Source: a virus. From it: a stretch of DNA of 64,000 nucleotides. The stretch is from IMG/VR virus record IMGVR_UViG_3300037149_000100; one strand, given 5' to 3'. A program made the translations under genes and the position numbers. A model generated the notes under the pieces. That model saw only the letters and a program-made list of their open reading frames with translations. It was not told where the DNA came from and ran no database searches. Positions within the stretch are counted from its first letter, which is position 1, and each line of letters begins with the position of its first letter. This document shows positions 19,801 to 63,930 of this stretch, piece after piece.

Positions 19801-20937
19801 ATGCTTGAAGTTCAGAAGTTCCTTAAGAACGGCGGAACTCTTGAGATGCTCAAGGCAGACTACGGCATTAGTGCTCGTGTGAACGAGAGGCTGGGGGTAA
19901 CTTGCCTCAATTACTCTCAAATCATGTCTCCAATGGGTCAGAAGATCGTCAGAGAGTGTCGTGCATTGGTGCTGGAGAGCACCACCTGGGAGGTGAAGTC
20001 ATGCTCCTTCGAACGCTTCTTCAACTTCGGTGAGGGGCACATCCCCAAGGACTTTGACTGGGACAACTTCCAGACGCTGGAGAAGCTGGATGGGTCGCTG
20101 ATTCACTTCTGGTTCCATGACACTGAAGGCTGGCAGTGCGGCACCCGTTCGGTTCCGGATGCGGATACCGGCATGGATGACTCCGGTCTCACATTCAAGC
20201 AGTTGGTCATCCAGACCATCAATGAGATGGGATCGTGTTGGGCTCACTGGACCGACAGCCTCATTCCAGGCTACACTTTTACCTTTGAATTGACCTCGCC
20301 AGAAAATATGATTGTGTGTGATTACCGGGGTCAGCGTAAGCTCACTCTGATTGGTATCCGCAACCTCGAAACCCTCAAGGAGGTGGATGTCCACCAGTGG
20401 CATCAGCCAGGGTATATTGCCCCCTGGCCGGTCGTGAAGCGTTACCCTGGCTTCACCCTGGATGCGGTGCAAGAAGCTGTACAGAAGCGTGACCCGCATG
20501 ACTTCGAGGGTTATGTGCTGGTGGATAAGAACTTTAACAGGGTGAAGATCAAGTCCTCCGCTTACGTGTTCATGTCCAGTCGTCGTGATTCCCTTGGGAA
20601 GTCGAACAAGGCACGGATCGAACTGATCCAAAATGATGCGGTGGATGATGTGCTGTCTAGCCTGCCTGAGTTCGTTCAGGGGAAAATCCTGGGTCTCCAA
20701 CGGAAGCTCAAGACCCTGGTCCAGACCTGTGATGCCCTCTATCAGGCTGTAAAGGATGAGGATACCGATAAGGACTTCGCCCTGAAGGTCCAGCACGGGG
20801 GCTACAGCAGTGTCATGTTCGCTCTGCGGCGTGGCAAGGCTGTGGATTCGTGGGAGCATTTCAAGCGGATGAGCCCCAAGCGAGTATTAGAGTATCTGGA
20901 TGAAGAAGACGACGAAGAGGAGACGGTATGCGAATAA
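19801..20937 (+). CDS. T4 Rnl1-family RNA ligase
   Basis: RECRALVL, RFFNFGE, EKLDGSL, TFEL, EGYV, RVKIKS nucleotidyltransferase motifs. Confidence 0.92.
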   Translation: MLEVQKFLKNGGTLEMLKADYGISARVNERLGVTCLNYSQIMSPMGQKIVRECRALVLESTTWEVKSCSFERFFNFGEGHIPKDFDWDNFQTLEKLDGSLIHFWFHDTEGWQCGTRSVPDADTGMDDSGLTFKQLVIQTINEMGSCWAHWTDSLIPGYTFTFELTSPENMIVCDYRGQRKLTLIGIRNLETLKEVDVHQWHQPGYIAPWPVVKRYPGFTLDAVQEAVQKRDPHDFEGYVLVDKNFNRVKIKSSAYVFMSSRRDSLGKSNKARIELIQNDAVDDVLSSLPEFVQGKILGLQRKLKTLVQTCDALYQAVKDEDTDKDFALKVQHGGYSSVMFALRRGKAVDSWEHFKRMSPKRVLEYLDEEDDEEETVCE

Positions 20938-27685: not shown

Positions 27686-28315
27686 ATGTTCAAGTCATGT
27701 ATTCATTGTTCGAAAGAGTTCCAGGCCAAGGACAACAGAAAGAAGTTCTGCTCTCAGTCCTGTTCAGCTTCTCACGCGCAATTAGGGAAGCCGAGCCACA
27801 ACCAAAAGAAGCCACGAAACCTGTGCTACTGTGGTAGCCCAATCGAAAACCCAGTCAGCGTGTTCTGTAGTGACCAGTGCCGCCAATCCCAAAAGATGGG
27901 AGGTATCACCGAATGGGTACAGGGCGGTCCAGCCCCGCTAGGGCCAGAATCAATCACCCGCTGGGTTAAGAAGTTGCGAGGAAGTGCCTGTGAAGAATGC
28001 GGGTGGGACCAACAAAACCCGGTATCAGGTAGGAGCCAGACCCAGGTGGACCACATAGATGGGGACAGCACCAACCTGATGTACACCAACCTCAAAGTGC
28101 TCTGCCCCAACTGTCACTCCATGACCCCCACATTCGGGAGCTTAAACCGAGGAAAAGGGACAAGGACTAAACGGTTCTCCAACCTCGTGCTACTTCCACG
28201 CATCTGCCCCACTTGTGGTGACTCGTTCACTCCAATCAGCAAAAGGCACACAAGCTGTTCTCGTAAGTGCCGGGGTAAGGCAACGTATCAAAAACAAATA
28301 TCTCGGAGTAGTTAA
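27686..28315 (+). CDS. HNH endonuclease with Zn-ribbon repeats
   Basis: CEECG...QVDHIDGDSTN...NLKVLCPNCH; multiple CxxC/FCS motifs. Confidence 0.9.
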   Translation: MFKSCIHCSKEFQAKDNRKKFCSQSCSASHAQLGKPSHNQKKPRNLCYCGSPIENPVSVFCSDQCRQSQKMGGITEWVQGGPAPLGPESITRWVKKLRGSACEECGWDQQNPVSGRSQTQVDHIDGDSTNLMYTNLKVLCPNCHSMTPTFGSLNRGKGTRTKRFSNLVLLPRICPTCGDSFTPISKRHTSCSRKCRGKATYQKQISRSS

Positions 28316-28375
28316 ACGGTAGAACCCAGTCCTGACATGGCTGTGACGGCAGTTCAACTCTGCCCTCTGAGACCA
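28302..28375 (+). tRNA. tRNA-Val(GAC)
   Basis: Cloverleaf; loop CTGACAT; CCA; overlaps HNH stop. Confidence 0.8.
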
Positions 28376-28385
28376 TCAAAAATTT

Positions 28386-28448
28386 TAGACACTAACAGCA
28401 ACCCAAAATTTCACCTTTGGCTGTGAAAAGCAAAATGTGTCGTGTCTA
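28386..28448 (+). ncRNA. TAACAGCAA-clamp RNA copy 1 (anticodon-like hairpin only)
   Basis: TAGACAC/GTGTCTA outer stem, TAACAGCAA, hairpin TTTCAC-CTTTGGCT-GTGAAA. Confidence 0.6.
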
Positions 28449-28449
28449 C

Positions 28450-28536
28450 GCTCTCGTAGCTGAAAGGATCAGCACCGGTCTACGAAACCGGGTACGTAAC
28501 AGTCATACGCAGGTTCGAATCCTGTCGGGAGTACCA
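28450..28536 (+). tRNA. tRNA-Arg(ACG), long variable region
   Basis: CCGGT-CTACGAA-ACCGG; T arm; CCA. Confidence 0.88.
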
Positions 28537-28646
28537 TTCGCTGAAGGCCATTGGTGAATTAGGAGAATCCCCTCCTAGCTGATGGTGTTGTTGTGAGACT
28601 TGGGAAAGTCCAGGGGTGCCGATACACTCTCTTCAGTGAACCTATC

Positions 28647-28707
28647 TCACTCGTAGCTCAGTTGGTAGAGCTTCAGTTTGTCGGGAGTTCGAGTCTCTCC
28701 GAGTGCG
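28647..28707 (+). ncRNA. tRNA-like RNA lacking the anticodon arm
   Basis: CACTCG/CGAGTG stem; canonical D arm and T arm joined by only 11 nt. Confidence 0.65.
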
Positions 28708-28831
28708 TTCCAAGAGTCAAGTCGTGAGACTTCGCGGTGTCTGTGAGCAGGATAAGGTCGCAGCGGGACAATGGAAGGGACGGATCGATATGCCGTCACC
28801 GGAACCTAACCGGTAACTTTTTCGTAAACAT

Positions 28832-28918
28832 GCAACAGCAACAAAGTTGGAGAGTTGTGGCAGGCCGTAACCCTGTTGGATTAATCCTGAGAGAGTTCGA
28901 ATCTCTCCTGTTGCACCA
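28832..28918 (+). tRNA. tRNA-Tyr(GTA)
   Basis: GCAGG-CCGTAAC-CCTGT; long variable arm; CCA. Confidence 0.8.
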
Positions 28919-28921
28919 AAT

Positions 28922-29008
28922 GTCGGTCGCGCCTCACTGGACGGGGCACCAGTCTGTAAAACTGGCGGGAGCAATCCCTACTGGGTTCGATTCCCAGGGT
29001 CGGCACCA
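28922..29008 (+). tRNA. tRNA-Tyr(GTA)
   Basis: CCAGT-CTGTAAA-ACTGG; long variable arm; CCA. Confidence 0.85.
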
Positions 29009-29009
29009 T

Positions 29010-29085
29010 GGCCCCATAGCTTAAACGGATAGAGCTTAGCCCTGCGAAGGCTACGGTTCCGGTTCAATTCCGGATGGGACTACCA
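29010..29085 (+). tRNA. tRNA-Arg(GCG)
   Basis: TAGCC-CTGCGAA-GGCTA; CCA. Confidence 0.85.
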
Positions 29086-29152
29086 AGTCTTGGTTGACAA
29101 AAAAGGTCATGATAAACATCGAACTTCTTCTTCCTCCTTTGTAGGAGAGAGC

Positions 29153-30208
29153 ATGAAAGTTCTGTTTATTCTGAAGCACAGGGACACTTACTGGGGGGAC
29201 TACTCCTCAACTACCACTTTGTCGTCTGGGCTATCTAATTCGGCCCAGTTCGTCTGCGATGCGTTGAATCTTTCAGGTGAGATCACCGCTAAGCTGGTGC
29301 AAGTAGAGGACAACAATCAAATTGACAAGGAAGTCACCCTATTCCGGCCTGATGTCTGCATTATCGAGGCTTACTGGGTTGTTCCGGAGAAGTTTGGGGT
29401 TCTGATTCCCCTTCACCCCCAGGTCAAATGGGTTGTTCACAACCATAGCGAGATTCCTTTCCTGGCCCAAGAGGGCATTGCAATTGATTGGAGCATTCGT
29501 TATCTTCAATACCCGAATGTCTTCGTCAGTGGCAACTCCCCACGGTCCTACCAGGACATGATTAATTTCCTGGTTCCAGTATATGGATTTGATGCCATCA
29601 AACGGGTTCTGTTCCTGCCCAACATCTACCCATCTGTCCATCGTCGTCACTGCATCCCAAAGAAGCGGAACCACACCTTGGATATCAGTTGCTTCGGGGC
29701 CATCCGGCCCTTGAAGAACCACCTTCTCCAGGCTATGACTGCTATCGACTATGCGAACCAACGGCATTACAACTTGCGTTTCCACATTAATGGGAGTAGA
29801 ATTGAGGGGGGCTCAGCCTCAAACTCAATTCTCAAGAATCTGCAACTGTTGTTCCAGCACACACCCAACTGCGAATTAGTTGAACATCCTTGGTATCCAC
29901 ATGACGAGTTTCTGGGTATTATGGAACAGATGGATGTTTCGATGCAAGTCAGCTTCAGCGAGACGTTTAACATCATCTCAGCGGATGCGGCGACTGTCGG
30001 AGTCCCTATCGTCACTTCTTCTGAAGTGCTTTGGGCACCATGGTTCACCAGAGCCACCCCTACCTCCGCTCGTAGCATCCGGAAACGGCTGGACTTCATG
30101 CTGAAGTATGGCCCTCTCCCCGCAGTCGAGTGGTTGGTCCAGAACAGTCTGAATACTTACAGCAAAGAATCGCTGAAACAGTGGCTGTTTGACTTGAAGA
30201 AACTGTAA
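29153..30208 (+). CDS. GT-B-fold glycosyltransferase
   Basis: CFGAIRPLKNH, QVSFSETFNIISADAATVGVPIVTS (GT4-like E-x7-D motif). Confidence 0.8.
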   Translation: MKVLFILKHRDTYWGDYSSTTTLSSGLSNSAQFVCDALNLSGEITAKLVQVEDNNQIDKEVTLFRPDVCIIEAYWVVPEKFGVLIPLHPQVKWVVHNHSEIPFLAQEGIAIDWSIRYLQYPNVFVSGNSPRSYQDMINFLVPVYGFDAIKRVLFLPNIYPSVHRRHCIPKKRNHTLDISCFGAIRPLKNHLLQAMTAIDYANQRHYNLRFHINGSRIEGGSASNSILKNLQLLFQHTPNCELVEHPWYPHDEFLGIMEQMDVSMQVSFSETFNIISADAATVGVPIVTSSEVLWAPWFTRATPTSARSIRKRLDFMLKYGPLPAVEWLVQNSLNTYSKESLKQWLFDLKKL

Positions 30209-30279
30209 TACAAGCTGGTGCCTGCGTGACCGTCCCAGTCATAAGAGCAAAGGTCGTTAAAATTGCCACCAGTTTCCTT

Positions 30280-30367
30280 GGAAGATCGGCAAAGTTGGAG
30301 AGTTGCACTAGTTTGCTAAACTAGAGGCGTTCGCGTCTAGAGGGTTCGATTCCCTTATCTTCCGCCA
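30280..30367 (+). tRNA. tRNA-Ser(GCT)
   Basis: CTAGT-TTGCTAA-ACTAG; long arm; GCCA. Confidence 0.88.
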
Positions 30368-30368
30368 T

Positions 30369-30484
30369 AAGACCCTAACAGCAATTAAAATTCCCTGTTA
30401 AGGAGGTGGTAGCAGGTCCGACTCCTGCCGAACTGACATATCAGTTCGTAGCTCATCGGTCAGAGCACCTAGAAATTGGGTCTT
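30369..30484 (+). ncRNA. circularly permuted tRNA-Asn(GTT)-like RNA in TAACAGCAA clamp (copy 2)
   Basis: Order: AAGACCC, TAACAGCAA, anticodon loop CTGTTAA, T arm, closed acceptor stem CGAACTGA-CATA-TCAGTTCG, D arm, GGGTCTT. Confidence 0.8.
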
Positions 30485-30662
30485 GATTTATCTGGGTTCA
30501 GCAATGTGCTGTGGGGCCACCCCCACGGTTCCGGAGACGTTAGCTGACGAAAGCTGAGGGACGCTTCCCTTGGGCCAACCCCTTCGTGATCAATCGGCTG
30601 GTACTACGTGAGAGTCGTAGCTTGCCACCCCCGATGGTGGGCTGTAGCAGATCACGATTCAC

Positions 30663-30740
30663 GCTCCTATGGCGCAATTGGCGAGACGCCTATGACTCAG
30701 ACTCATAGTTCTGTCGGTTCGACTCCGACTAGGAGCACCA
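30663..30740 (+). tRNA. tRNA-Leu(CAG), short variable region
   Basis: TATGA-CTCAGAC-TCATA; ACCA. Confidence 0.85.
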
Positions 30741-30741
30741 A

Positions 30742-30834
30742 AAGACCCTAACAGCAATTAACCCTTTTGCCTTGTACAGCAAACGAAGCGTGGTTCGACT
30801 CCACGGATGGCGTGGGCCTAGTTAAACGGGTCTT
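30742..30834 (+). ncRNA. TAACAGCAA-clamp RNA copy 3 (anticodon-like arm plus T arm)
   Basis: AAGACCC/GGGTCTT; TTTGC-CTTGTACA-GCAAA; CGTGG-TTCGACT-CCACG. Confidence 0.7.
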
Positions 30835-30852
30835 GACTTTTTGCATCACCAT

Positions 30853-30929
30853 AGTCTCATCGTCTAGTGGCCAAGGACGCTTGCCTCTCACGCAAGAAAT
30901 CACGGGTTCGACTCCCGTTGGGACTACCA
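30853..30929 (+). tRNA. tRNA-Glu(CTC)
   Basis: CTTGC-CTCTCAC-GCAAG; CCA. Confidence 0.9.
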
Positions 30930-31044
30930 AAGACTCTAACAGCAATCCAAAATTCCCTGTTAAGGACGAGGTAGTGGGTCCGACTCCCACTGAGGCAGCA
31001 CATAGCCTCATAGCTCATCGGTAGAGCGCGTATAAACGAGTCTT
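30930..31044 (+). ncRNA. circularly permuted tRNA-Asn(GTT)-like RNA in TAACAGCAA clamp (copy 4)
   Basis: AAGACTC/GAGTCTT; CTGTTAA loop, T arm, closed acceptor TGAGGC-AGCACATA-GCCTCA, D arm. Confidence 0.8.
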
Positions 31045-31050
31045 GACCAT

Positions 31051-31124
31051 GGTCCCATGGTGTAATGGAAACATACCTGCCTGTCACGTAGGAGAAGCGA
31101 GGTCAGTACTCGTTGGGACCGCCA
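31051..31124 (+). tRNA. tRNA-Asp(GTC)
   Basis: CCTGC-CTGTCAC-GTAGG; atypical T loop; GCCA. Confidence 0.8.
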
Positions 31125-31374
31125 AAATTCAACTATTGAATCCTCTGTAGCGGGGAGTACGCAGCCCGTTACGGTGTGGATGTTCTGGAAGAACGCTTCG
31201 AAGATGGTGAGGCAGCGATCATCAACGACCCCGATCCTCAGTGGGTCGCGTGGTATGACAACCGGTTGTTCTCCAACCTCTACCTAGAGTGGAATCGGCA
31301 ACACCCGGAACTCCCTCCCATCGATCCTGATGAGGAGCCAGATGAACCGGATGAACCAGAAGATTAAAAACCAT

Positions 31375-31460
31375 GCGACTGTACCCGAATTGGTATAGGG
31401 GCCAGCTTGAGGTGCTGGTGGTGCAAGCCATTGTGGGTTCGAGTCCCACCAGTCGTACCA
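31375..31460 (+). tRNA. tRNA-Leu(GAG)
   Basis: CCAGC-TTGAGGT-GCTGG; long arm; ACCA. Confidence 0.9.
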
Positions 31461-31756
31461 TTCTGGCACTAACCAGTAGGGCCTGTTCGATGGGTTCGAA
31501 ACCGGAGATCAGTGGCTCAGCTTACTACCCTTTGATGTTTGCTGAGTGAAACCTACTGGGAGTATAAAGCCTTTGCCGCCAACGTAGCGGATAATACCGA
31601 AAGTATTTTGTGCTCTTTCGGGCCAGATAATCAAAGCCCACGGAAGATGATGGGGTTAAAGTCTCCTTCCACTACCAACATGTGGATGCTCATGACGAGC
31701 GCCGTGGTGCCAATCGTTACCCCTAGAGTTTTGGAGATTTAGGGGTAACTCAGCCT

Positions 31757-31830
31757 GTGGCTATAGTTCAATGGTAGAACGGAAGATTGTGATTCTTCTC
31801 ATGAGGGTTCGATTCTCTCTAGTCACCCCA
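31757..31830 (+). tRNA. tRNA-His(GTG)
   Basis: GAAGA-TTGTGAT-TCTTC; C73; no encoded G-1. Confidence 0.9.
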
Positions 31831-31831
31831 T

Positions 31832-31929
31832 TCACTAGACCAGGACAAGGTTGTCCCTTCTCGCCGGAGAGGTCTGAGGTTCGATTCCTCTTAAAGACGG
31901 TCAAGTGGTTCGATTCCACAGTCTAGTGA
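31832..31929 (+). ncRNA. structured RNA with two T-arm hairpins
   Basis: TCACTAGAC/GTCTAGTGA outer stem; GAGG-TTCGATT-CCTC and GTGG-TTCGATT-CCAC. Confidence 0.6.
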
Positions 31930-31939
31930 TTCATTCAAT

Positions 31940-32026
31940 GCCCGTAGCGCCACACGGTCGAGGCAGACGCCTGATAAGCGTCCTACGTAACAGTTCAAGC
32001 AGGTTCGACTCCTGCTGCGGGTACCA
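31940..32026 (+). tRNA. tRNA-Ile(GAT), long variable region
   Basis: GACGC-CTGATAA-GCGTC; ACCA. Confidence 0.85.
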
Positions 32027-32027
32027 A

Positions 32028-32185
32028 TCTTAGGGCGGCGTGGGATATAGACACGCAATCAGGCACTGATCCTGTCTGATACTTGAGGTGCTAACTGGAG
32101 GCGAACGTGAACAAATCCAGGACAACATGTGTGAGTGGCCATACCGCATGTTAGAAGCTGTGGGAGTCATGCCCCATCTCTAAGA
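32028..32185 (+). ncRNA. expanded tRNA-like RNA
   Basis: TCTTAGGG/CTCTAAGA outer stem, D-like GCGTG/CACGC, three internal hairpins, T-like TGGG/CCCA. Confidence 0.5.
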
Positions 32186-32327
32186 CTTTTCTTCGCCAAA
32201 ACGCAGTATTAGATTGCAGGTAGCAACATCACCTGGAACCGCCCGATCCAACAGTGCCGAATTATAGTAACATTCTGACAAACAATCGGCCAATCGGGCG
32301 AGTTTATTTGACAATCAGTAAATCCAG

Positions 32328-32400
32328 TGCGGGACAGACCGGCCCTAGTTCAGGCCCATAACCTGATACGCAGGAGGTTCAATTCCTCCTCCCGCTTCCA
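32328..32400 (+). tRNA. tRNA-Met(CAT), initiator-like with degenerate D arm
   Basis: TCAGG-CCCATAA-CCTGA; 1:72 mismatch; CCA. Confidence 0.7.
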
Positions 32401-32421
32401 TAATCATTTCAACACTTACAT

Positions 32422-32498
32422 GCCAGCCAAGCCAACTCGGGTGAGGCGCGAGATTCATATCCTCGATACGACCAGTTCGAAACTGGTGGCTGGTACCA
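32422..32498 (+). tRNA. tRNA-Met/Ile2(CAT)
   Basis: Loop TTCATAT; ACCA. Confidence 0.78.
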
Positions 32499-32500
32499 TT

Positions 32501-32582
32501 GGGTTAGAAGCAGAACGGTGCTGCACCAGCCTCTTAAGCTGGCTCTTCGGACTTGCGGGTTCAAATCCCGTCTAACCCACCA
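32501..32582 (+). tRNA. tRNA-Lys(CTT), extended variable arm
   Basis: CCAGC-CTCTTAA-GCTGG; ACCA. Confidence 0.88.
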
Positions 32583-32682
32583 AAGCAGTAGCGGTGTTCA
32601 GCGGTTCTAGAGCCAATGAAGAATTCGGGGATAAATGCCTCTCCGTCTACAGCCTACCAGGGTTCTAGAACCCTGGTCTTAT

Positions 32683-32760
32683 GGGTCGATAGCTCAGGTC
32701 GGTTAGAGCGAAGGACTGAAAATCCTTAGATCCCTGTTCGAGATCAGGGTCGGCCCACCA
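32683..32760 (+). tRNA. tRNA-Phe(GAA)
   Basis: AAGGA-CTGAAAA-TCCTT; ACCA. Confidence 0.88.
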
Positions 32761-32771
32761 TAAAACAAAAT

Positions 32772-32855
32772 GCTCCTATAGGCGAACTGGTCTAGCCACT
32801 GGATTTAGGTTCCAGGCCCTCGGGCGTCTCGGTTCGACTCCGAGTAGGAGCACCA
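32772..32855 (+). tRNA. tRNA-Leu(TAG)
   Basis: CTGGA-TTTAGGT-TCCAG; long arm; ACCA. Confidence 0.88.
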
Positions 32856-32891
32856 AAAAGTTGCTACCACACTCTCTAAAGAGGTGGGGCA

Positions 32892-33317
32892 TTGAACATT
32901 AAACAAGTCATCAAAGCAATTGGAAGACTCAACGAACGGGTAGCCGTATGGGGCACCAAGTGGTTTGGTTCCATGGTGGTGTTCTACCTGTTCTTCATCT
33001 GGGGCATGTTAGGCTTGATGCCGTTCATTCCCAAGAGCTTCCAAGACATCATCCTACTGGTCAGTTCTGCCTGGATTCAGTTGTGGGCGTTACCTCTTTT
33101 GGCGGTCGGCACCGCAGTGCTGAATCGCACCTCGGAGGCACGGGCCTCCCAGGACCACGAGACCATCAAGAGCGAGTTCGAAGAAGTGAAGAACATGCAC
33201 AAAGAAAATAGTGAGCTTCTCCGACTACTTAACGAGGAGACTGACGCTGACCGAGAGATGGATGCACGGATAAAACGCATCGAAACGATGTTGCTGGAGC
33301 AGAAGCATCAGAAGTAA
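32892..33317 (+). CDS. DUF1003-like membrane protein
   Basis: Two TM segments then coiled coil (VSSAWIQLWALPLL...SEARASQDH). Confidence 0.55.
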   Translation: MNIKQVIKAIGRLNERVAVWGTKWFGSMVVFYLFFIWGMLGLMPFIPKSFQDIILLVSSAWIQLWALPLLAVGTAVLNRTSEARASQDHETIKSEFEEVKNMHKENSELLRLLNEETDADREMDARIKRIETMLLEQKHQK

Positions 33318-33319
33318 AT

Positions 33320-33395
33320 GGGTCCAAGGTGTTGAGGCGTGGCACACTGGTTTCGCACTCCAGAAGATCGAGTTGAACTCTCGATGGATCCACCA
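33320..33395 (+). tRNA. tRNA-Ala(CGC)
   Basis: G3:U70; loop TTCGCAC; ACCA. Confidence 0.82.
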
Positions 33396-33430
33396 AATTG
33401 ACTTTTCAAACCCTTAACTGAGGGGATTCA

Positions 33431-33907
33431 ATGTATCCAAGCCAAGCCACCAGGATGCTCTTTCGGTTGAAAAACCTACGTCTGCTACCTAAAGAGCTAG
33501 CCAGCAGGGCAAATGCCCAATGGCAAAAGCACGGAGACGCAATTTGGGAAGGATGTGGAACCCCAGAGGGCGATGGTATCTCAGCTTGGCTAGGTGATTT
33601 TGATGCCATGGGTGATGCTGATGAAGAGTTTCAGCGCAGTCGTGATATCTTAATGGCTGGAAAAGTATTATATCGAATCAGAGTGCAACAGAAAGAGATG
33701 AATTGGTCTGGGTTCAGTTTCCTCACCTACGGAAGATTCTGTCACTATGTTGGGCCACTCCCTCTGGCCTCACTGGAAAAGGTGCCCCTCGATAAGTATG
33801 AGGATTGGTATGAGGTCTGTCCCAAGTGTTTGAAAGACACTGAGTTTCCAGATGAAGAAGATGGCTGTAAATGTAACCCTACCCCATTTGAAGAAGAACA
33901 TTACTAA
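33431..33907 (+). CDS. hypothetical protein
   Basis: ORF with GAGGGG RBS. Confidence 0.55.
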   Translation: MYPSQATRMLFRLKNLRLLPKELASRANAQWQKHGDAIWEGCGTPEGDGISAWLGDFDAMGDADEEFQRSRDILMAGKVLYRIRVQQKEMNWSGFSFLTYGRFCHYVGPLPLASLEKVPLDKYEDWYEVCPKCLKDTEFPDEEDGCKCNPTPFEEEHY

Positions 33908-33909
33908 CA

Positions 33910-33941
33910 CCACGTGAGCCCTACCGTGGTAAAACAAAGGG
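33910..33941 (+). ncRNA. compact H-type pseudoknot, copy 1
   Basis: CCACG-TGAG-CCCT-AC-CGTGG-TAAAACAA-AGGG. Confidence 0.6.
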
Positions 33942-34057
33942 TGGGTGATTGAAACTCGGCTGTCAAGCCAAGCTGCTCAGACATGGCGGAACTTTCAATC
34001 TCACGGCAGTCCCTAAAACTGCTCAATTCGAGTATTAAACCTTTAGGAGTAGAAAAA

Positions 34058-34468
34058 ATGAAAATTGGTGATATCGTAACACTCAAAACCGGTGGTCCTC
34101 AGATGGGCATCGAATCTCTCTACAGCGCAGAGCCGGTGAATCGTTGGATCTGTGTGTGGTTCAAGGAAGGAATTGGCCATCAGAGGCTGGTTCATACGGA
34201 AGATGAGTTGACTTTGGTTGGAGCGGAAATCAAGGCTGCGGTTGAGACGAAACTGGAAGAGGCCAAGGCAGTGGTCGAGATTGCGGAAACCAAGGCTGCG
34301 GCTGAAGTTGCCAAGGTTGAAGTTCAAGCCAAGGCCGTTGAAGTCAAGGTTGAGGCGGAAGTCGCCAAGGCTGAAGTCCAGGCTGAGGCGGTTAAAACTG
34401 AAGTCGAAACCAAGGTTGAGACTGAAGTTGCCAAGGTTGAACCCAAGGCTCCCAAGGCTCAAAAATAA
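34058..34468 (+). CDS. YodC/DUF2158-like domain with A/E/V/K low-complexity tail
   Basis: KIGDIVTLKTGGPQMGI...CVWF; EVAKVE repeats. Confidence 0.7.
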   Translation: MKIGDIVTLKTGGPQMGIESLYSAEPVNRWICVWFKEGIGHQRLVHTEDELTLVGAEIKAAVETKLEEAKAVVEIAETKAAAEVAKVEVQAKAVEVKVEAEVAKAEVQAEAVKTEVETKVETEVAKVEPKAPKAQK

Positions 34469-34556
34469 TAAAAATTGTTGGACACCCTGGTTGCAAATAC
34501 AGGGCGAATGTGATAGGGCGGTATCTATAAGTCGTGCCCTGTCCAACATCCATCAG

Positions 34557-34630
34557 TGCGGAGTAGCTCAGTGAAAGAGCACCGGGCTTAGTTCCGGAGG
34601 TCGGTGGTTCAAGTCCATCCTCCGCAACCA
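34557..34630 (+). tRNA. fMet-like tRNA body with aberrant 6-nt anticodon loop (undetermined)
   Basis: TGCGGAG/CTCCGCA-ACCA; CCGGG-CTTAGT-TCCGG. Confidence 0.6.
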
Positions 34631-34687
34631 ATGCGTAACAGCCCCAGGTAGTGGGGGAGCCGGTTCTTAGCGCAACACCGGTATCAT

Positions 34688-34755
34688 ACGACACGCACAG
34701 GGTGCAGATTGGACTCCAAATCCGATCTTGCGGAGTTCGAGCCTCCGGTGTCGTG
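34688..34755 (+). tRNA. tRNA-Trp(CCA), truncated D arm
   Basis: TTGGA-CTCCAAA-TCCGA; T arm; no encoded CCA. Confidence 0.65.
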
Positions 34756-34761
34756 CATAAA

Positions 34762-34841
34762 GGGGCATAGGGCTACTTGGGGTGGCCGCTTCCATGGCAT
34801 GGAAGATATTCAGACGAGTTCAATTCTCGTATGCTCCACCA
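34762..34841 (+). tRNA. tRNA-Ala(GGC)
   Basis: G3:U70; CTTCC-ATGGCAT-GGAAG; ACCA. Confidence 0.85.
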
Positions 34842-34951
34842 TTTCAACACTTAAGACACACACAGCATTCAAATGGATAACGCCTTCGGGCCATTTGGTT
34901 CAAACCCAAAAATGCATCTTGATTTTCTGTTCCAAGGTTAGAGGTGCTTGC

Positions 34952-38207: not shown

Positions 38208-38868
38208 GTGGACATCATGGTAGAAATAAGAGCCGCTGAGGGAGGGGAAGATGCTGTCCTCCTCGTGCGGGATCAACTGAAGGCATATCTTCGTCGTGTG
38301 GAGCGGAGGGGACTTTAGTGCAGAATTATTGGAAGTGACGACTGGGTTTGCATCCTTCCTCGTTAGAGGTGAGGGAGCGGAGGAGTTCTTCAACGAAACT
38401 GGGGGTCATCGGTGGCAACATGTGAGTCCCACCGATAAAAACAAACGTGTTCACACCTCCACTGTTACGGTTGCAGCTTTAGCGATGCGAGCTACCTCGA
38501 CCCACATGAACCCCAACGATGTGGAAATACAAACCACCAGAGGCTCTGGCCCAGGTGGGCAGAACCGAAACAAAGTGGAGAGTTGTGTCCTGGCGATTCA
38601 CAAGCCAACCGGACTTTCGGTGCGGATTGATGGTCGGTCTCAATTGAATAATAAGAGGATGGCATTGCAAATCCTAGCCACCAAGCTGGAAGACCAGCAC
38701 ACCGAGCAGGAACAGAAACGGGTCAGCAGGGATCGCAAGGATCAAGTCGGCACCGGCCAGCGTGGCGATAAAATCCGTACCTATAGGGTCAGAGACAACA
38801 TCGTCATTGACCATCGAACTGGTCAGAAATACCAGCTTTCTCGCTGGCTAGACGGAGTGAGAGAGTAA
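38208..38868 (+). CDS. class I peptide chain release factor homolog, split by a +1 frameshift at CTT-TAG (38313-38318)
   Basis: Frame 0 gives VEIRAAEGGEDA...YLRRVERRGL*; +1 frame gives ETGGHRWQHVSPTD...RVHTSTVTVA...GSGPGGQNRNK...GQRGDKIRTY. Confidence 0.9.
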
Positions 38869-48910: not shown

Positions 48911-48984
48911 GCAGCCGTAATTCATCGGTAGAATGGTTTGCTCTAACCAGACTTAGGCGGGTTCGACTCCTGTCGGCTGCACCA
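48911..48984 (+). tRNA. amber suppressor tRNA (CTA)
   Basis: GCAGCCG/CGGCTGC-ACCA; GTTTG-CTCTAAC-CAGAC; canonical T arm. Confidence 0.88.
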
Positions 48985-59841: not shown

Positions 59842-60087
59842 ATGACCAATGAGTGGGATGAATTGTTTGACCATCTGGAGCAGAACCCCGTAGAGAAGGA
59901 AGAGACGGAGGATCCGATAGAAGATTGCGATTCAGAATGCTTCGAGGGGACAGAGGTCGCAACCCCCAGTCCCATCCGCCCACGACCCAGAGGCTATAGG
60001 GGAGAAACAATTGAGGATTATTGGGGAGAACGAGCCGAACAGTTCAGAAGAGAGTATCAGAACGGAGGTGTCATTAGCTTCGGTTAG
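59842..60087 (+). CDS. fourth EWDEL-motif protein; stop lies inside the terminal CRISPR repeat
   Basis: MTNEWDELFDHLE; TAG at 60085-60087. Confidence 0.6.
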   Translation: MTNEWDELFDHLEQNPVEKEETEDPIEDCDSECFEGTEVATPSPIRPRPRGYRGETIEDYWGERAEQFRREYQNGGVISFG

Positions 60088-60824
60088 AAGCTCACACAGT
60101 TAGGCCAGATGTCCCGGTGGCGGCAGCGGATCGGCGAGGAGTGTCATTAGCTTCGGTTAGAAGCTCACACAGTTAGAAGTCGCTCTTCAGCAGTACGGAG
60201 TGGACGTTGTGTCATTAGCTTCGGTTAGAAGCTCACACAGTTAGATGCTGCGGAGCAGTGGGGACTCGGGGAAGATTTGCGTGTCATTAGCTTCGGTTAG
60301 AAGCTCACACAGTTAGCGGTCGGAGAGCTTCTGGAGCCTATGGAGGTTTCCGGGTGTCATTAGCTTCGGTTAGAAGCTCACACAGTTAGATGCTGCGGAG
60401 CAGCGGGGATTCGGGAAAAATCTGCGTGTCATTAGCTTCGGTTAGAAGCTCACACAGTTAGCGGCGATGCTGTTGGCCATGGCGGTGACCGGAGCCCTGG
60501 TGTCATTAGCTTCGGTTAGAAGCTCACACAGTTAGCTGATTAGCAGCCCCATTCATGAGCGCGTAACTCCAGTGTCATTAGCTTCGGTTAGAAGCTCACA
60601 CAGTTAGCAGTTCGATGAGGCCATACAGAATAAGCGATTCACGTGTCATTAGCTTCGGTTAGAAGCTCACACAGTTAGGAGGTGGCTGAAATCCTAAAGA
60701 ATCTGGAGATTAACCCGTGTCATTAGCTTCGGTTAGAAGCTCACACAGTTAGTTGGGAACCTGAGCGGTGTAATGTTCGCGTCTCTGAGTGTCATTAGCT
60801 TCGGTTAGAAGCTCACACAGTTAG
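60068..60824 (-). CRISPR. CRISPR array: 11 identical 36-bp repeats, 10 spacers of 32-38 bp
   Basis: Repeat on - strand CTAACTGTGTGAGCTTCTAACCGAAGCTAATGACAC with AGCTTC/GAAGCT hairpin; starts at 60068, 60141, 60209, 60281, 60354, 60426, 60500, 60572, 60643, 60717, 60789. Orientation inferred from the cas gene and leader. Confidence 0.98.
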
Positions 60825-61022
60825 GGGTTGACTCACAAATAGCGGCAATCATGGAGTTTATGATAGCGATTTCGAGCAGTCTAGTCATTTCTTTGGAAAC
60901 TTCTGGAATGGCCCTCATTCGCACAGCCTAAATAGCTGATACGTATGATTCGAGCGACTCCCAGGCCCCCCTCACCTAACCTCTCGCCAAATTGTCAAAG
61001 ATCCTCACCCTACATAATACTC
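60825..61022 (-). promoter_or_regulatory. CRISPR leader
   Basis: ~195-bp non-coding gap between cas stop and array; phage GAGTATTAT box overlaps the cas stop codon. Confidence 0.65.
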
Positions 61023-63804
61023 AGAACGGCATCTTCTCGATCTCGACCCGTTGCTTGAGCAGATCTCGCCGCAGATTACGCTCCGTCTTGTCAATCCACT
61101 CCACCCCATCCAGATACCATGTGGGTCCGGTTCCGGTCAGATGTGTCCTGGCCGCTTCGAGCGATCCGAATTGATAGAGGAGGCAGCCCTTCATTCGCTT
61201 CGCTCCCTCGTCCGAACCCTTCAGATAGACCTGATGCAGATCCGTATGTCGGGAAAAGAATCGGTGGCCGATGTTCTTCGCTGCGTTGATGTCAGACGGC
61301 ACCGATTCGATTTGGCCATCCGGCGTGAGGAAGAACAAATCCCGACCCTTCCGGTACCCAATCCGACCACTCTCATGATGCACCTGAGAGGTCTGAGCCT
61401 CAGAGACGGTTACGACTCCGATCCCATACCACTGAGCCGCATTAATGATCGCATCCTTAACTCGTTTTGGAGACCAGAAAGCAGTGAGGAAGTTCTCATC
61501 CCGCTGATTCAGAGTCTTGCCATACCCCTCAAGGTCTTCTAGCACGATCAGGCAGCAATCATTCTGATGAGCGATACGGACGATCTTCGAAGCAAGTTGC
61601 TTGAGGAAGTTATCCTTGCAGCCATTGTAATCCAGCTTCTGCTGTTCCAAACAGATGGGAATGCGAGAGTTATCCGTACCCAGATAGCTGAGGGATCGGG
61701 TGACCCGTTTCCGCTGTTCAAGGATGTTGAGCCACTTGAAATCCTGATCGAACTTCTGATCAGCCATTTGGTTCTGGGACAGATACGACCGCCTCCGATT
61801 CCGCAACGCTCCGAACTGGAGTGTCACATACTTGAACAGAATATTGATGAGGAAGCTGAAATCCTTCTTGACAGACTCCAAGTTGTTTTCGTATCGCTTC
61901 ATCATCTGATCCATCTGATACAAAGGATCCGGATCCTTGCTGAACTGTTCGAAGATCTGACTCCTTCGCTGACCCGCCACCTTGTAGTCAGCGAAGAACC
62001 GCTGAACCGTATGAATCATATCAACCAGATGAGAGTCAGCCTTCAGACCTTTGCCCTTCGAACTGGATTTGACCTGACCGATCAGATGACCCAGGTTCTT
62101 ATATGCGTAGAACAATTCCGTGTAATCCGGGTCATCAGCAATCTCCATCTCTCCACTGTTCAGAATTTGAGACGGATTCGCCACACCTGTGATGGTTGAT
62201 TCGGTGACGGCCCAGGCGAAAGGACTGCGGATACCCAGGTCCACTGACATCACCTTATAGGTCTTACCCTGAATCAGATTGAACCGTTCAACCGTCTTCT
62301 CCGTATCCTTCGACAGATCTGAACCCGTAGCCGCTGCGGAAAGGTAATACTGCAAGGCAATGTGTTCCTCAGAGGCTCTCATCCCCTCTACGGACATACT
62401 GAGCCGCAGGAAGAACGCTCCGTTCCGATAAACCAGAACCGGTTCCTTGCAAATAGCCGAACGCTCCGTTCCCTTGCGAACAAAGTTCAGGTAGGTGGAT
62501 TCACCTTCTGGATTAGACCAGATTTGGAGATCCTGAAGATAAGAAGTGGGCTTCAGAGTTGAACGATGCCCTCGGAGTCCCTTGGTGTTCATCGCTATGG
62601 TATAAACTTCAAAGTTGAAGTTCTCTTTCCGGTCCCCAACCTTGACATACAGCCGCTCCACCTTTCGACCGTTCCGCATCAACACATCCTTGTCGTTATC
62701 CCAAATCACTCGATCAGGAAGCTCAGAGCCCGTAGCACTGATCAGATGCTTGGTGTAATTCCCACCCAGCAGGTAATAGAACCGATGGTAGTCAGCCTCA
62801 CCGACAAACGCATAAGCGGCAGTCTTCCGATGAGCCCGATGGGACATGATGGCTTCGAGCAGATGGAGATGTTTGAGGATCAGGGGCTTGGGGATCAGAT
62901 CATCCTCAGAGGTCTCCAACGTGTTCCACAGTTCCGGCATTTCAGCTAGCAATTCGTAGAACTTAATATCCAGGCTAAAGTCAATATGCTTCTGCCCCAC
63001 ATCCTTTCGATTCGATTTCAGATAGAAATGCTCGGTCGGAATCGTGCGTTGCTGAAGAGCCGGGATGATACAATCCCTCAGATAGTGATGAACCCGCTCA
63101 TCGAAATGACCGATCAGGTTCAGACCGATACAGGTATCAAAGAACCGCAACAGGCTCTGCCGAATCCGAACCGGAACCTCAGCTTTCATCTGCTGGATTT
63201 GAACCTCTTCCGCCGCATAGGACTCTTCGGTCATCCGCTTCATTTCGATCCAACTCTTCAGATCAGACATCACATCCTTAGTGATGGCTTTCCGTTCTGG
63301 GGCGAACAGCGTAGCGGTGAAAGGAGGGCGGGAGAAGAAGCCGATATGCTTCAACGTATTGGAGACCCGAAACAAGAATTGACTGTTGTGGCTCTTCGGA
63401 TCCGCCACATATTCGGTCAGAACGGCCCAATCCTCGGCGGTCATCTGATCCGTCTGGATTGCCCCTTCGAACAACTTCGTATACATATGATTGCCTTGCT
63501 GACAGTTCAGCAGGCCCAACCACAAAGCCTTCAGGCAATTGCTGAATTGCTCGTAACTGATGGTCCGGTCGGTCCGCTCGTAGAGAGCCTTACGCTGAGC
63601 CGTCAGATCCACCCTTTCACATCCGAGTTCTCGGCTGGTCTGATTCTGGGTCTTCTGCTCCACCCAATCCAGCCCCCAGCAGGGGACTTCATTGTAAAGT
63701 GCATGATATGTCTTGAAGCACCGCTCATACCGATCCCAGAACTGGTCCTTCCGCAGATCGGTCTTCAGTTCGATCACTCTTACTCCACTCAACTCCTTTG
63801 TCAT
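61021..63804 (-). CDS. cas12: type V CRISPR effector (Cas12 family, ~927 aa)
   Basis: RuvC-I VMSVDLGIR, RuvC-II IVLEDL, RuvC-III SDINAAKNIG; adjacent to array; AAAGGAG RBS before ATG at 63804. Confidence 0.93.
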   Translation of the reverse strand: MTKELSGVRVIELKTDLRKDQFWDRYERCFKTYHALYNEVPCWGLDWVEQKTQNQTSRELGCERVDLTAQRKALYERTDRTISYEQFSNCLKALWLGLLNCQQGNHMYTKLFEGAIQTDQMTAEDWAVLTEYVADPKSHNSQFLFRVSNTLKHIGFFSRPPFTATLFAPERKAITKDVMSDLKSWIEMKRMTEESYAAEEVQIQQMKAEVPVRIRQSLLRFFDTCIGLNLIGHFDERVHHYLRDCIIPALQQRTIPTEHFYLKSNRKDVGQKHIDFSLDIKFYELLAEMPELWNTLETSEDDLIPKPLILKHLHLLEAIMSHRAHRKTAAYAFVGEADYHRFYYLLGGNYTKHLISATGSELPDRVIWDNDKDVLMRNGRKVERLYVKVGDRKENFNFEVYTIAMNTKGLRGHRSTLKPTSYLQDLQIWSNPEGESTYLNFVRKGTERSAICKEPVLVYRNGAFFLRLSMSVEGMRASEEHIALQYYLSAAATGSDLSKDTEKTVERFNLIQGKTYKVMSVDLGIRSPFAWAVTESTITGVANPSQILNSGEMEIADDPDYTELFYAYKNLGHLIGQVKSSSKGKGLKADSHLVDMIHTVQRFFADYKVAGQRRSQIFEQFSKDPDPLYQMDQMMKRYENNLESVKKDFSFLINILFKYVTLQFGALRNRRRSYLSQNQMADQKFDQDFKWLNILEQRKRVTRSLSYLGTDNSRIPICLEQQKLDYNGCKDNFLKQLASKIVRIAHQNDCCLIVLEDLEGYGKTLNQRDENFLTAFWSPKRVKDAIINAAQWYGIGVVTVSEAQTSQVHHESGRIGYRKGRDLFFLTPDGQIESVPSDINAAKNIGHRFFSRHTDLHQVYLKGSDEGAKRMKGCLLYQFGSLEAARTHLTGTGPTWYLDGVEWIDKTERNLRRDLLKQRVEIEKMPF

Positions 63805-63930
63805 GTCTGGCTCTCCTTTGAGCGTGTGCTGCGATGAGCATCTATAGGGATGATACCGCATCTTGCAAGAGTTTGGATACAAAAATTTCTGAGACATTTC
63901 AAGAAAGTAAAAGTCTAACAATAGTTTATT

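What the first reader, a model, noticed from the sequence alone, without database searches (positions are those of the whole stretch)
28386..34920. TAACAGCAA clamp: a repeated RNA scaffold carrying different tRNA fragments
Seen: copies at 28386, 30369, 30742 and 30930 (degenerate one at 34853) each start within about 12 nt of a tRNA CCA. All have a covarying 7-bp outer stem (TAGACAC/GTGTCTA, AAGACCC/GGGTCTT, AAGACTC/GAGTCTT) followed by invariant TAACAGCAA. The cargo varies: anticodon-like hairpin only, anticodon plus T arm, or a whole permuted tRNA. Inference: a modular ncRNA family with a constant protein-binding handle displaying variable anticodon loops, Y-RNA-like in logic, possibly bait for host anticodon nucleases or a guide for tRNA repair.
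Basis: partly seen in the sequence, partly recalled or inferred. Interest (0 to 1): 0.82.

Follow-up and report, generated by a model that had tools for sequence, protein, structure and literature searches.

The report
Phage Y-like RNAs with tRNA cargo
Four small RNA genes hidden between this phage's tRNA genes share one short "handle" and carry pieces of tRNA or a whole inside-out tRNA; in many other phages the same handle sits beside the gene of a Ro60-shaped protein, so they look like an undescribed kind of Ro/Y-RNA particle.

Summary
Four exact TAACAGCAA motifs (28393, 30376, 30749, 30937, + strand) each follow a 7-nt arm that pairs perfectly with 7 nt lying 50-110 nt downstream, and each element starts 0-10 nt after a tRNA CCA. 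Copies 2 and 4 hold a complete tRNA-Asn(GUU)-like fold, permuted at position 26/27 with a sealed acceptor end. Copy 3 has a hairpin plus a T arm; copy 1 has a hairpin only. The 34853 copy is plausible but unproven.

The handle is a widespread phage RNA family. In IMG/VR, 58 of 130 motif matches have the closing arm, and a stem pair I did not select for covaries. The elements always lie on the same strand as a neighbouring DUF2828 gene. That gene was present in 5 of 5 clamp-bearing large phage records and 0 of 5 controls. Clamps lie next to it in 7 of 9 cultured phage lineages. Its predicted fold matches Ro60.

The family is not in Rfam. The cargo resembles YrlA and the handle resembles Dictyostelium Class I RNA, both below threshold.

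This window holds no DUF2828 gene, and neither transcription nor binding was tested. This scan has met the family before on other DNA.

The parts
28386..28449 (+). Clamp RNA copy 1. 5' arm 28386-92, UAACAGCAA 28393-401, hairpin cargo (6-bp stem, 8-nt loop), 3' arm 28442-48. It ends 1 nt before tRNA-Arg.
   Evidence: A covariance model built without any window sequence finds it at E = 1e-5.
30369..30485 (+). Clamp RNA copy 2. The handle encloses a whole tRNA-Asn(GUU)-like fold, permuted at position 26/27, with the acceptor stem sealed by a 4-nt loop.
   Evidence: YrlA core match of 32 bits at 30404-30471. ARAGORN calls tRNA-Asn(gtt) after in-silico re-ordering and nothing in native order.
30742..30835 (+). 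Clamp RNA copy 3. Handle, hairpin with 8-nt loop (holding a second ACAGCAA), canonical T arm CGTGG-TTCGACT-CCACG, and a short GGC/GCC hairpin.
   Evidence: Covariance model E = 0.004.
30930..31045 (+). Clamp RNA copy 4, a paralogue of copy 2 (76% identity over 74 nt), with compensated changes in the handle, T and acceptor stems. Permuted tRNA-Asn(GUU)-like cargo.
   Evidence: repeat D8; YrlA core, 31.8 bits.
34853..34921 (+). Possible diverged copy. AAGACAC-ACACAGCAT ... AAAAT-GCATCTT-GA, with 5 of 7 stem pairs. The cargo holds a GCC-UUCG-GGC hairpin and a T-arm-like GGTTCAAACC. It starts 11 nt after tRNA-Ala.
   Evidence: Read from the sequence. Not found by model R1. Resembles the variant handle in L138.
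28302..28375 (+). tRNA-Val. Its CCA end lies 10 nt before copy 1.
28450..28536 (+). tRNA-Arg(ACG). Its 5' end, an RNase P site, lies 1 nt after copy 1.
30280..30367 (+). tRNA-Ser(GCU). Its CCA end lies 1 nt before copy 2.
30663..30740 (+). tRNA-Leu(CAG). Its CCA end lies 1 nt before copy 3.
30853..30929 (+). tRNA-Glu(CUC). It lies 18 nt after copy 3, and its CCA abuts copy 4.
31051..31124 (+). tRNA-Asp(GUC). It starts 6 nt after copy 4.

Best explanation
The four elements are small non-coding RNAs of a widespread phage family that has not been catalogued.

Inferred: each is transcribed within the tRNA array and cut out by the enzymes that mature the neighbouring tRNAs.

Shown by covariation: the ends pair into a 7-bp stem that, with the adjacent single-stranded UAACAGCAA, forms a constant handle.

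Inferred from gene linkage and fold: the handle is the binding site of a Ro60-like ring protein of family DUF2828 (HEAT-repeat ring plus vWA/MIDAS domain). This would give a particle analogous to Ro60-Y RNA.

The variable insert is the working end. It is a sealed, permuted tRNA-Asn-like L-shape in copies 2 and 4, and a T arm and/or hairpin in copies 3 and 1. It mimics tRNA parts, so the particle could engage proteins that recognise tRNA, either tethering them to the ring or decoying them. It cannot be aminoacylated.

In this phage the partner gene is not within the 64-kb window. It is presumed to lie elsewhere in a roughly 250-300 kb genome, as in relatives.
For: Family and RNA-level selection:
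- 58 of 130 IMG/VR matches to AGACNCTAACAGCAA have the exact closing arm within 260 nt, against about 6% expected.
- The stem pair I did not select for (columns 3-76) reads AU 12, UA 11, GC 3, unpaired 2.
- A covariance model built without window sequences finds window copies 1 and 3.

Linkage to DUF2828:
- About 20 clamp loci encode DUF2828 within the fetched flank, often 14-40 nt downstream of the clamp. Every clamp I checked is on the gene's strand.
- 5 of 5 large clamp-bearing records encode DUF2828 somewhere; 0 of 5 records with only a chance motif match do.
- Clamps lie beside the gene in 7 of 9 cultured phage lineages: cyanophage B23, mycobacteriophage Krypton555, Listeria P100, E. coli phage mistaenkt, Campylobacter F358, Staphylococcus SEP9 and Bacillus MrDarsey. 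About 27 candidates are on the gene's strand and 2 on the other.

Relatives of this phage:
- G016 (RecA 57% identical) has tandem clamps just upstream of its DUF2828 gene.
- G014, G017 and G001 also carry clamps.

Fold: the DUF2828 model has pLDDT 83, and its top 11 PDB matches are all Ro60/TROVE proteins over the full length, E = 2e-7 to 1e-4.

Cargo: copies 2 and 4 match the tRNA-like core of YrlA, the Y RNA bound by bacterial Ro60, and re-order into tRNA-Asn(GUU).
Against: - No DUF2828 or TROVE gene was found in the window by Pfam on all ORFs of 250 aa or more, by tblastn, or by a DUF2828 profile on all six frames.
- The window's own genome is not held.
- Relatives G014 (221 kb, 77% complete) and G001 carry clamps but no DUF2828 in the recovered DNA.
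- The handle has no sequence likeness to the known Ro60 site GNCGAA/CUUG (PMC4201824).
- Binding and expression are not shown.
- A clamp 14-40 nt before the DUF2828 start codon could equally be a cis-regulatory leader.
- The 82 neighbouring ORFs gave no recurrent RNA-repair or nuclease partner.
Confidence: 0.65

Rival explanations
1. The clamp is a general stability or processing module for spacer RNAs in tRNA operons. In this reading a closing stem and tag are read by a host nuclease or chaperone, with no dedicated Ro-like partner, and the link with DUF2828 reflects only that this gene tends to sit near tRNA arrays.
For: In the window, all copies abut tRNA ends. DUF2828 genes often neighbour tRNA genes. 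The window has no partner gene.
Against: Many clamps sit directly upstream of DUF2828 with no tRNA nearby, for example L013, L042, L083, L076, L048 and L112. Genome-level co-occurrence was 5 of 5 against 0 of 5. SEP9 has three clamps after the gene and no tRNA in the locus.
Confidence: 0.12
2. The handle is chiefly a cis-acting autoregulatory leader of the DUF2828 mRNA. On this view the copies in tRNA arrays are dispersed, perhaps decaying, duplicates with no function of their own.
For: Clamps lie 14-40 nt before the DUF2828 start codon in many phages.
Against: The window copies keep perfect stems with compensated changes, and intact permuted tRNA folds, far from any such gene. Clamps also lie downstream of the gene, before a terminator, in Krypton555 and SEP9. 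Several genomes carry many array-embedded copies.
Confidence: 0.08
3. DNA-level origin: the elements are tRNA pseudogene debris or small mobile elements with 7-bp terminal inverted repeats that insert after tRNA genes.
For: The inverted terminal 7-mers, the tRNA-derived content and the clustering within an array could suggest duplication or insertion.
Against: The arms covary while keeping complementarity, which transposase-bound ends would not do. The asymmetric motif always faces the direction of transcription (about 27:2; all window copies on the + strand). Structure is preserved in paralogues by compensatory changes (D8). No target-site duplications were seen.
Confidence: 0.04

Closest known systems
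YrlA-type Y RNAs bound by bacterial and phage Ro60/Rsr (Rfam RF02553; Chen et al. 2014, PMC4201824; phage phiLo Ro60-Yrl, PMC12135203)
   Same: The ends pair into a protein-binding stem. In copies 2 and 4 the effector module is a tRNA mimic with a T arm, loop-sealed acceptor stem and D arm. In other phages the RNAs are encoded beside, and on the strand of, a Ro60-fold ring protein with a vWA domain. There are often two or three RNAs per locus.
   Different: The handle is a 7-bp stem plus single-stranded UAACAGCAA, not the GNCGAA/CUUG bulged helix. Scores are far below the Rfam threshold (32 against 69 bits). The partner family is DUF2828 (PF11443/PF25043), not Pfam TROVE, and has no detectable sequence match to solved Ro60 chains. 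Many members carry only an anticodon-arm-like hairpin. Here the RNAs are embedded in a tRNA array and include the anticodon arm, so the cargo is a whole permuted tRNA.
Class I RNAs of dictyostelid social amoebae (Rfam RF01414; PMC7919456; published pattern GTTGRCCTTACAGCAA ... GTCAACTG, PMC5054030)
   Same: The architecture and nearly the same letters: a short covarying 6-7 bp stem joining the ends, then single-stranded CU(U/A)ACAGCAA, a variable A-rich middle, the 3' arm, then (U)G. The total length is 45-65 nt in short members. RF01414 is the only or the best Rfam match for short phage clamps: 15.3 bits and 22.9 and 22.1 bits, E = 0.03-0.05.
   Different: All scores are below the gathering score of 41.5. 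Window copy 1 gives no match at E up to 10. Class I RNAs are eukaryotic, have their own DUSE promoter, are reported to bind the RRM protein Rnp1A/CIBP, and were reported as unique to Dictyostelia. Homology is not shown.
Circularly permuted tRNA genes (red alga Cyanidioschyzon and some archaea; from my own knowledge, not tested here)
   Same: The tRNA segments are in permuted order: the 3' part lies before the 5' part.
   Different: Those genes are processed through a circular intermediate into functional, aminoacylatable tRNAs. Here the acceptor ends are joined by a short loop with no CCA, and the break (26/27) is closed by the clamp, so no chargeable tRNA can result.

Membership tests
YrlA / Y RNA-like (Rfam RF02553) | tRNA-like module: T arm, loop-closed acceptor stem, D arm | tested here: met
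   Copies 2 and 4 align to model positions 23-86 at 32.0 and 31.8 bits. Copies 1 and 3 lack the module.
YrlA / Y RNA-like (Rfam RF02553) | Ro60-binding helix with the GNCGAA ... CUUG motif (model positions 1-22 and 87-114) | tested here: not met
   The ends of the model are not aligned in the window copies. The consensus shown differs from AGACNC-UAACAGCAA / GNGUCU.
YrlA / Y RNA-like (Rfam RF02553) | Score at or above Rfam's gathering threshold (69 bits) | tested here: not met
   32 bits in the window. 38-41 bits for the best relatives in L026, L038, L071 and L150.
YrlA / Y RNA-like (Rfam RF02553) | Encoded within about 4 kb of a TROVE-domain Ro60 gene on the same strand | tested here: not met
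   No TROVE or DUF2828 gene in the 64-kb window.
ACAGCAA-handle ('clamp') RNAs linked to DUF2828 (uncatalogued; defined by this analysis and earlier notes of this scan) | A 7-bp closing stem with covariation, directly followed on the 5' side by unpaired (U/C)(A/U)ACAGCAA | tested here: met
   4 of 4 window copies. Family covariation.
ACAGCAA-handle ('clamp') RNAs linked to DUF2828 (uncatalogued; defined by this analysis and earlier notes of this scan) | Match to a covariance model built from members outside the window | tested here: met
   Model R1: copy 1 E = 1e-5; copy 3 E = 0.004. Copies 2 and 4 were found but mis-closed because of their large cargo. The 34853 copy was not found.
ACAGCAA-handle ('clamp') RNAs linked to DUF2828 (uncatalogued; defined by this analysis and earlier notes of this scan) | A DUF2828 (Ro60-fold) gene in the same genome | tested here: inconclusive
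   Absent from the window. The own genome is not held. Present with tandem clamps in relative G016. Absent from the recovered parts of G001, G013, G014, G015 and G017.
Dictyostelium Class I RNA (Rfam RF01414) | Short terminal stem plus the 11-nt motif CCUUACAGCAA next to the 5' arm, scoring at or above 41.5 bits | tested here: not met
   The architecture and 8 of 9 motif letters are shared. Window copy 1 gives no match at E up to 10. Other family members score 15-23 bits.
Dictyostelium Class I RNA (Rfam RF01414) | Dictyostelid gene with an upstream DUSE promoter element | tested here: not met
   This is a phage tRNA array, and the elements abut tRNA genes.
Functional circularly permuted tRNA gene | Yields a tRNA with free acceptor ends and CCA after processing | tested here: not met
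   The acceptor strands are joined by a 4-8 nt loop with no CCA.

The most novel reading that the evidence does not exclude
The phage handle and the Dictyostelium Class I RNA core (a 6-bp stem plus CUUACAGCAA ... UG) may be the same protein-binding module. If so, Class I RNAs, which are abundant, regulated during development, of unknown mechanism and thought unique to social amoebae, would be eukaryotic members of a family spanning viruses, bacteria and eukaryotes. The real partner would be a Ro60-like DUF2828 protein, a family also found in plants. That would amount to a second Ro/Y-RNA system parallel to the classical one.
Probability: 0.3. Interest if true: 0.9.

Novelty: new variant of a known kind. 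Interest (0 to 1): 0.78.

Why it matters
Ro60-Y RNA particles are known from animals, some bacteria and a few phages, and their function in microbes is still unclear. Here a different handle and a different, Ro60-shaped protein family appear to form a parallel system.

That protein family has matches in 705 cultured phage records, including Felix O1-like coliphages, Listeria P100, staphylococcal and campylobacter phages, mycobacteriophages and cyanophages. Genome records label it only "hypothetical", "RNA-binding" or "Ro-like".

The RNAs carry exchangeable tRNA parts, from bare anticodon arms to whole sealed tRNAs. This points to an interaction with tRNA-recognising enzymes or nucleases during infection, and it can be tested directly in standard laboratory phage-host pairs.

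The finding also explains much of the unannotated "spacer" DNA in phage tRNA arrays. It offers a lead on the long-unexplained Class I RNAs of Dictyostelium.

Tried and rejected
- Rest of the genome: the own assembly is not held. The look-up of encoding contigs returned only 3-16 kb fragments lying inside the window.
- Sequence link between DUF2828 and Ro60: a profile of 16 DUF2828 proteins finds no Ro60 chain in the PDB sequence set. Only the fold comparison does.
- Functional partners: Pfam tallies of 82 ORFs flanking DUF2828 in 19 loci gave replication genes, HNH and TnpB, and no recurrent RNA-repair gene.
- More copies in the window: loose motif-plus-stem scans were dominated by noise (101 + strand hits against about 50 on reversed sequence). 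A broader scan added nothing convincing.
- Origin of the cargo: copies 2 and 4 are not recent derivatives of the phage's own tRNA-Asn genes or of any other tRNA in the array.
- An apparent hairpin UAACAG/CUGUUA predicted for copies 2 and 4 competes with the anticodon-arm fold. I treat it as a coincidence of the GUU loop.
- Promoter and terminator scans were at chance level.
- Literature: searches for DUF2828, Ro-like phage proteins and ACAGCAA found no description of these RNAs. The library lacks most subscription journals.


Full report
**Observation.** The window carries a + strand array of 29 tRNA genes between 28.3 and 49 kb. Exact TAACAGCAA occurs four times, all on the + strand and all within 2.6 kb, at 28393, 30376, 30749 and 30937. 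About 0.5 exact matches are expected in the whole window on both strands.

Each motif is preceded by a 7-nt arm whose perfect reverse complement lies 50-110 nt downstream. The pairs are TAGACAC/GTGTCTA, AAGACCC/GGGTCTT (twice) and AAGACTC/GAGTCTT. Stem positions 1 and 6 therefore change on both sides.

The elements begin 10, 1, 1 and 0 nt after the CCA of tRNA-Val, Ser, Leu and Glu. Copies 1, 3 and 4 end 1, 18 and 6 nt before the next tRNA.

**Anatomy of the copies.** Copies 2 (30369-30485) and 4 (30930-31045) are paralogues, 76% identical over 74 nt, with compensated changes in their stems. After the motif they contain, in order:
- an anticodon-arm-like hairpin with the loop CUGUUAA;
- a 5-nt variable stretch;
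- a T arm;
- a 7-8 bp acceptor stem whose strands are joined by a short loop;
- UA and a D arm.

This is a whole tRNA opened between positions 26 and 27 and sealed at the acceptor end.

Rfam's YrlA model matches this core at 32.0 and 31.8 bits over model positions 23-86, below the 69-bit threshold. When I re-ordered the two halves in a script, ARAGORN called both tRNA-Asn(GUU). In native order it called nothing. The cargo is not a recent copy of the phage's own tRNA-Asn genes.

Copy 3 has a hairpin with an 8-nt loop, a canonical T arm and a short GGC/GCC hairpin. Copy 1 has a single hairpin with an 8-nt loop.

The "degenerate" copy at 34853-34921 keeps AAGACAC ... AAAAU-GCAUCUU-GA with 5 of 7 pairs and a T-arm-like GGUUCAAACC. 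My covariance model does not detect it. Its handle resembles a variant seen in a related phage. I regard it as plausible only.

**The family outside the window.** Of these, 58 have the exact 6-nt closing complement within 260 nt, against about 6% expected by chance.

In an alignment of 28 short members that excludes the window (A2), the one stem pair I had not selected for reads AU 12, UA 11, GC 3, unpaired 2. The pair at stem position 6 was fixed by my filter, so I do not count it as evidence.

A covariance model built on A2 (R1) finds window copy 1 at E = 1e-5 and copy 3 at E = 0.004. It reaches copies 2 and 4 only partially, because of their large inserts.

Cargo varies from 20-nt hairpins to YrlA-like tRNA mimics (L026, L038, L071). 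Hairpins with a 7-nt YU-NNN-R-N loop occur in 20 of 53 elements against 3.2 +/- 1.9 in shuffled cargo. About six of those 20 are T loops. Clear anticodon-arm mimics include loops for GCU, GUU, GAU, UGG and UGA.

**The partner gene.** In L013 two tandem clamps end about 25 nt before an ORF that Pfam assigns to DUF2828.
- A tblastn search with this protein finds a homologue in about 20 of the clamp loci, within the few kb fetched. The clamp is often 14-40 nt upstream of the start codon. In every case I checked it is on the gene's strand.
- At genome level, 5 of 5 large viral records that have clamps but no DUF2828 in the fetched flank do encode DUF2828 elsewhere. There R1 finds a further clamp upstream of the gene in L122, L123 and L124. 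By contrast, 0 of 5 similar-sized records with only a chance motif match encode it.
- In GenBank phages the protein has matches in 705 records.
- I opened nine lineages. Clamps lie beside the gene in cyanophage B23, mycobacteriophage Krypton555, Listeria phage P100, Felix O1-like coliphage mistaenkt, Campylobacter phage F358, Staphylococcus phage SEP9 and Bacillus phage MrDarsey. None was clear in Vibrio phage phi-Grn1 or Erwinia phage pEa_SNUABM_50.
- A uniform scan of these loci gave about 27 candidates on the gene's strand and 2 on the other.
- In mistaenkt and MrDarsey the clamps follow tRNA 3' ends closely, as in the window.
- In Krypton555 three clamps (hairpin, tRNA mimic, Ser-GCU anticodon-arm mimic) fill the gap between the gene annotated "Ro-like RNA binding protein" and a terminator.

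**The protein is Ro60-shaped.** I modelled the DUF2828 protein of G016, a relative of the window's phage, with an alignment of 16 homologues (pLDDT 83, pTM 0.74). Its 11 best PDB matches are all Ro60/TROVE proteins over the full length: Thermus phage phiLo, Xenopus, human and Deinococcus, with E = 2e-7 to 1e-4 and TM about 0.5. The next matches, from E = 4e-3, cover only the vWA domain.

A sequence profile finds no Ro60 chain, so the relation is visible only by fold. The family keeps a DxSGS MIDAS-type motif.

**This phage and its relatives.** The window has no DUF2828 or TROVE gene, and its own assembly is not held. Relatives found through RecA are fragments of genomes of roughly 250-300 kb.
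- G016 (RecA 57% identical) has tandem clamps with the variant motif ACACCAGCAA directly upstream of its DUF2828 gene, plus another clamp at 77 kb.
- G014 has two clamps but no DUF2828 in 221 kb at 77% completeness.
- G017 has one clamp.
- G001, the nearest record, has one clamp after a tRNA, carrying a different permuted tRNA-like cargo.

Whether this phage encodes the partner therefore remains open.

The window does encode an Rnl1-type RNA ligase 8 kb upstream of the array. An RNA ligase also adjoins DUF2828 in the Erwinia jumbo phage. However, a tally of 82 neighbouring ORFs showed no recurrent RNA-repair partner.

**Comparison with known families.**
- Canonical YrlA and other Y RNAs bind Ro60 through a helix with GNCGAA and CUUG (PMC4201824; consensus; CGAA motif in phage phiLo Yrl RNAs, PMC12135203). 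The clamp has a different handle, so it fails YrlA membership on the handle, on the score and, in this window, on gene context. It shares the tRNA-mimic module and the overall logic.
- The handle is strikingly like Dictyostelium Class I RNAs. These have a 6-bp covarying stem, an 11-nt single-stranded motif next to the 5' arm and a variable rest (PMC7919456). The published search pattern is GTTGRCCTTACAGCAA ... GTCAACTG (PMC5054030).
- RF01414 is the only Rfam hit for a short clamp in L013 (15.3 bits, E = 1.8). It is the best hit for two SEP9 clamps (22.9 and 22.1 bits, E = 0.03-0.05). All are below the 41.5-bit threshold, and window copy 1 gives nothing. This is a lead, not a membership.
- No other Rfam 15 family covers the elements.
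- I found no paper describing them.

**Mechanism.**
- Shown: a conserved, strand-specific, covarying stem-plus-motif handle; exchangeable tRNA-derived cargo; linkage to a Ro60-fold gene.
- Inferred: co-transcription with the tRNAs; release by RNase P at the downstream tRNA and by 3'-end maturation of the upstream tRNA; binding of the handle by the DUF2828 ring; use of the tRNA-like module to engage tRNA-recognising proteins.
- By analogy, Y RNA tethers Ro60 to PNPase in Deinococcus (PMC4201824), and phage phiLo Ro60-Yrl binds host PNPase (PMC12135203).
- Whether the cargo acts as a tether, a gate or a decoy for anticodon nucleases is not decided by my data.

**Rivals.** I rate three alternatives lower: a partner-independent processing or stability module, a purely cis-acting leader of the DUF2828 mRNA, and a DNA-level origin. 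The reasons are given under the rival explanations.

**Earlier notes of this scan.** A look-up showed that other agents have reported the same handle, with DUF2828, in at least 33 other genomes, and had suggested the Class I RNA likeness. I used these as leads and re-tested the main claims here.

**Verdict.** This is a real and apparently uncatalogued variant of the Ro/Y-RNA theme. Its function, and the partner in this particular phage, remain to be shown.

Noticed in passing
window 60068-60850 and 61021-63921 (-): A CRISPR array of at least 11 identical 36-nt repeats with spacers of about 36 nt lies next to a 966-aa ORF with C2c1/Cas12 RuvC-like and Cas12f TNB domains. This looks like a phage-encoded type V CRISPR-Cas locus.
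   Followed up: partly
window 38296-38868 (+) and 48911-48984 (+): A 190-aa release-factor-like ORF (PCRF plus RF-1 domains) sits inside the tRNA array, and a suppressor tRNA with anticodon CUA lies 10 kb downstream. Together they hint at stop-codon recoding.
   Followed up: no
window 19801-20937 (+): An Rnl1-type (T4 RNA ligase 1 family) RNA ligase lies 8 kb upstream of the tRNA and clamp array. An RNA ligase also adjoins the DUF2828 gene of Erwinia phage pEa_SNUABM_50.
   Followed up: partly
window 31831-31939 (+): Between tRNA-His and tRNA-Ile lies an element closed by an 8-bp stem, CACTAGAC/GTCTAGTG, which contains the AGAC/GTCT core. It holds two T-arm-like hairpins but no ACAGCAA. It may be a diverged relative of the clamps.
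   Followed up: no
window 34631-34761 (+): TAACAGCC begins 5 nt after the CCA of the odd tRNA at 34557-34630. By eye, a tRNA-Trp(CCA)-like fold that ARAGORN did not call follows at about 34689-34757.
   Followed up: no
window 28647-28707 (+) and about 33322-33397 (+): Two further tRNA-like sequences. One lacks an anticodon arm (Rfam tRNA, 36.5 bits). The other ends in CCA and was not called by ARAGORN or Rfam. Stretches of 180-300 nt inside the array (28537-28831, 30486-30662, 31461-31756) remain unexplained.
   Followed up: no
L151 971-1522 (Listeria phage P100): A ROOL RNA match (86 bits, gathering score 99) lies about 640 nt upstream of the clamps that precede the DUF2828 gene gp165, among tRNA genes.
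   Followed up: no
L004 (IMG/VR giant-virus MAG contig): Three clamps with short cargo each directly precede a tRNA gene, and the same contig holds a group I intron match. The handle therefore also occurs in a contig binned as a giant virus.
   Followed up: partly
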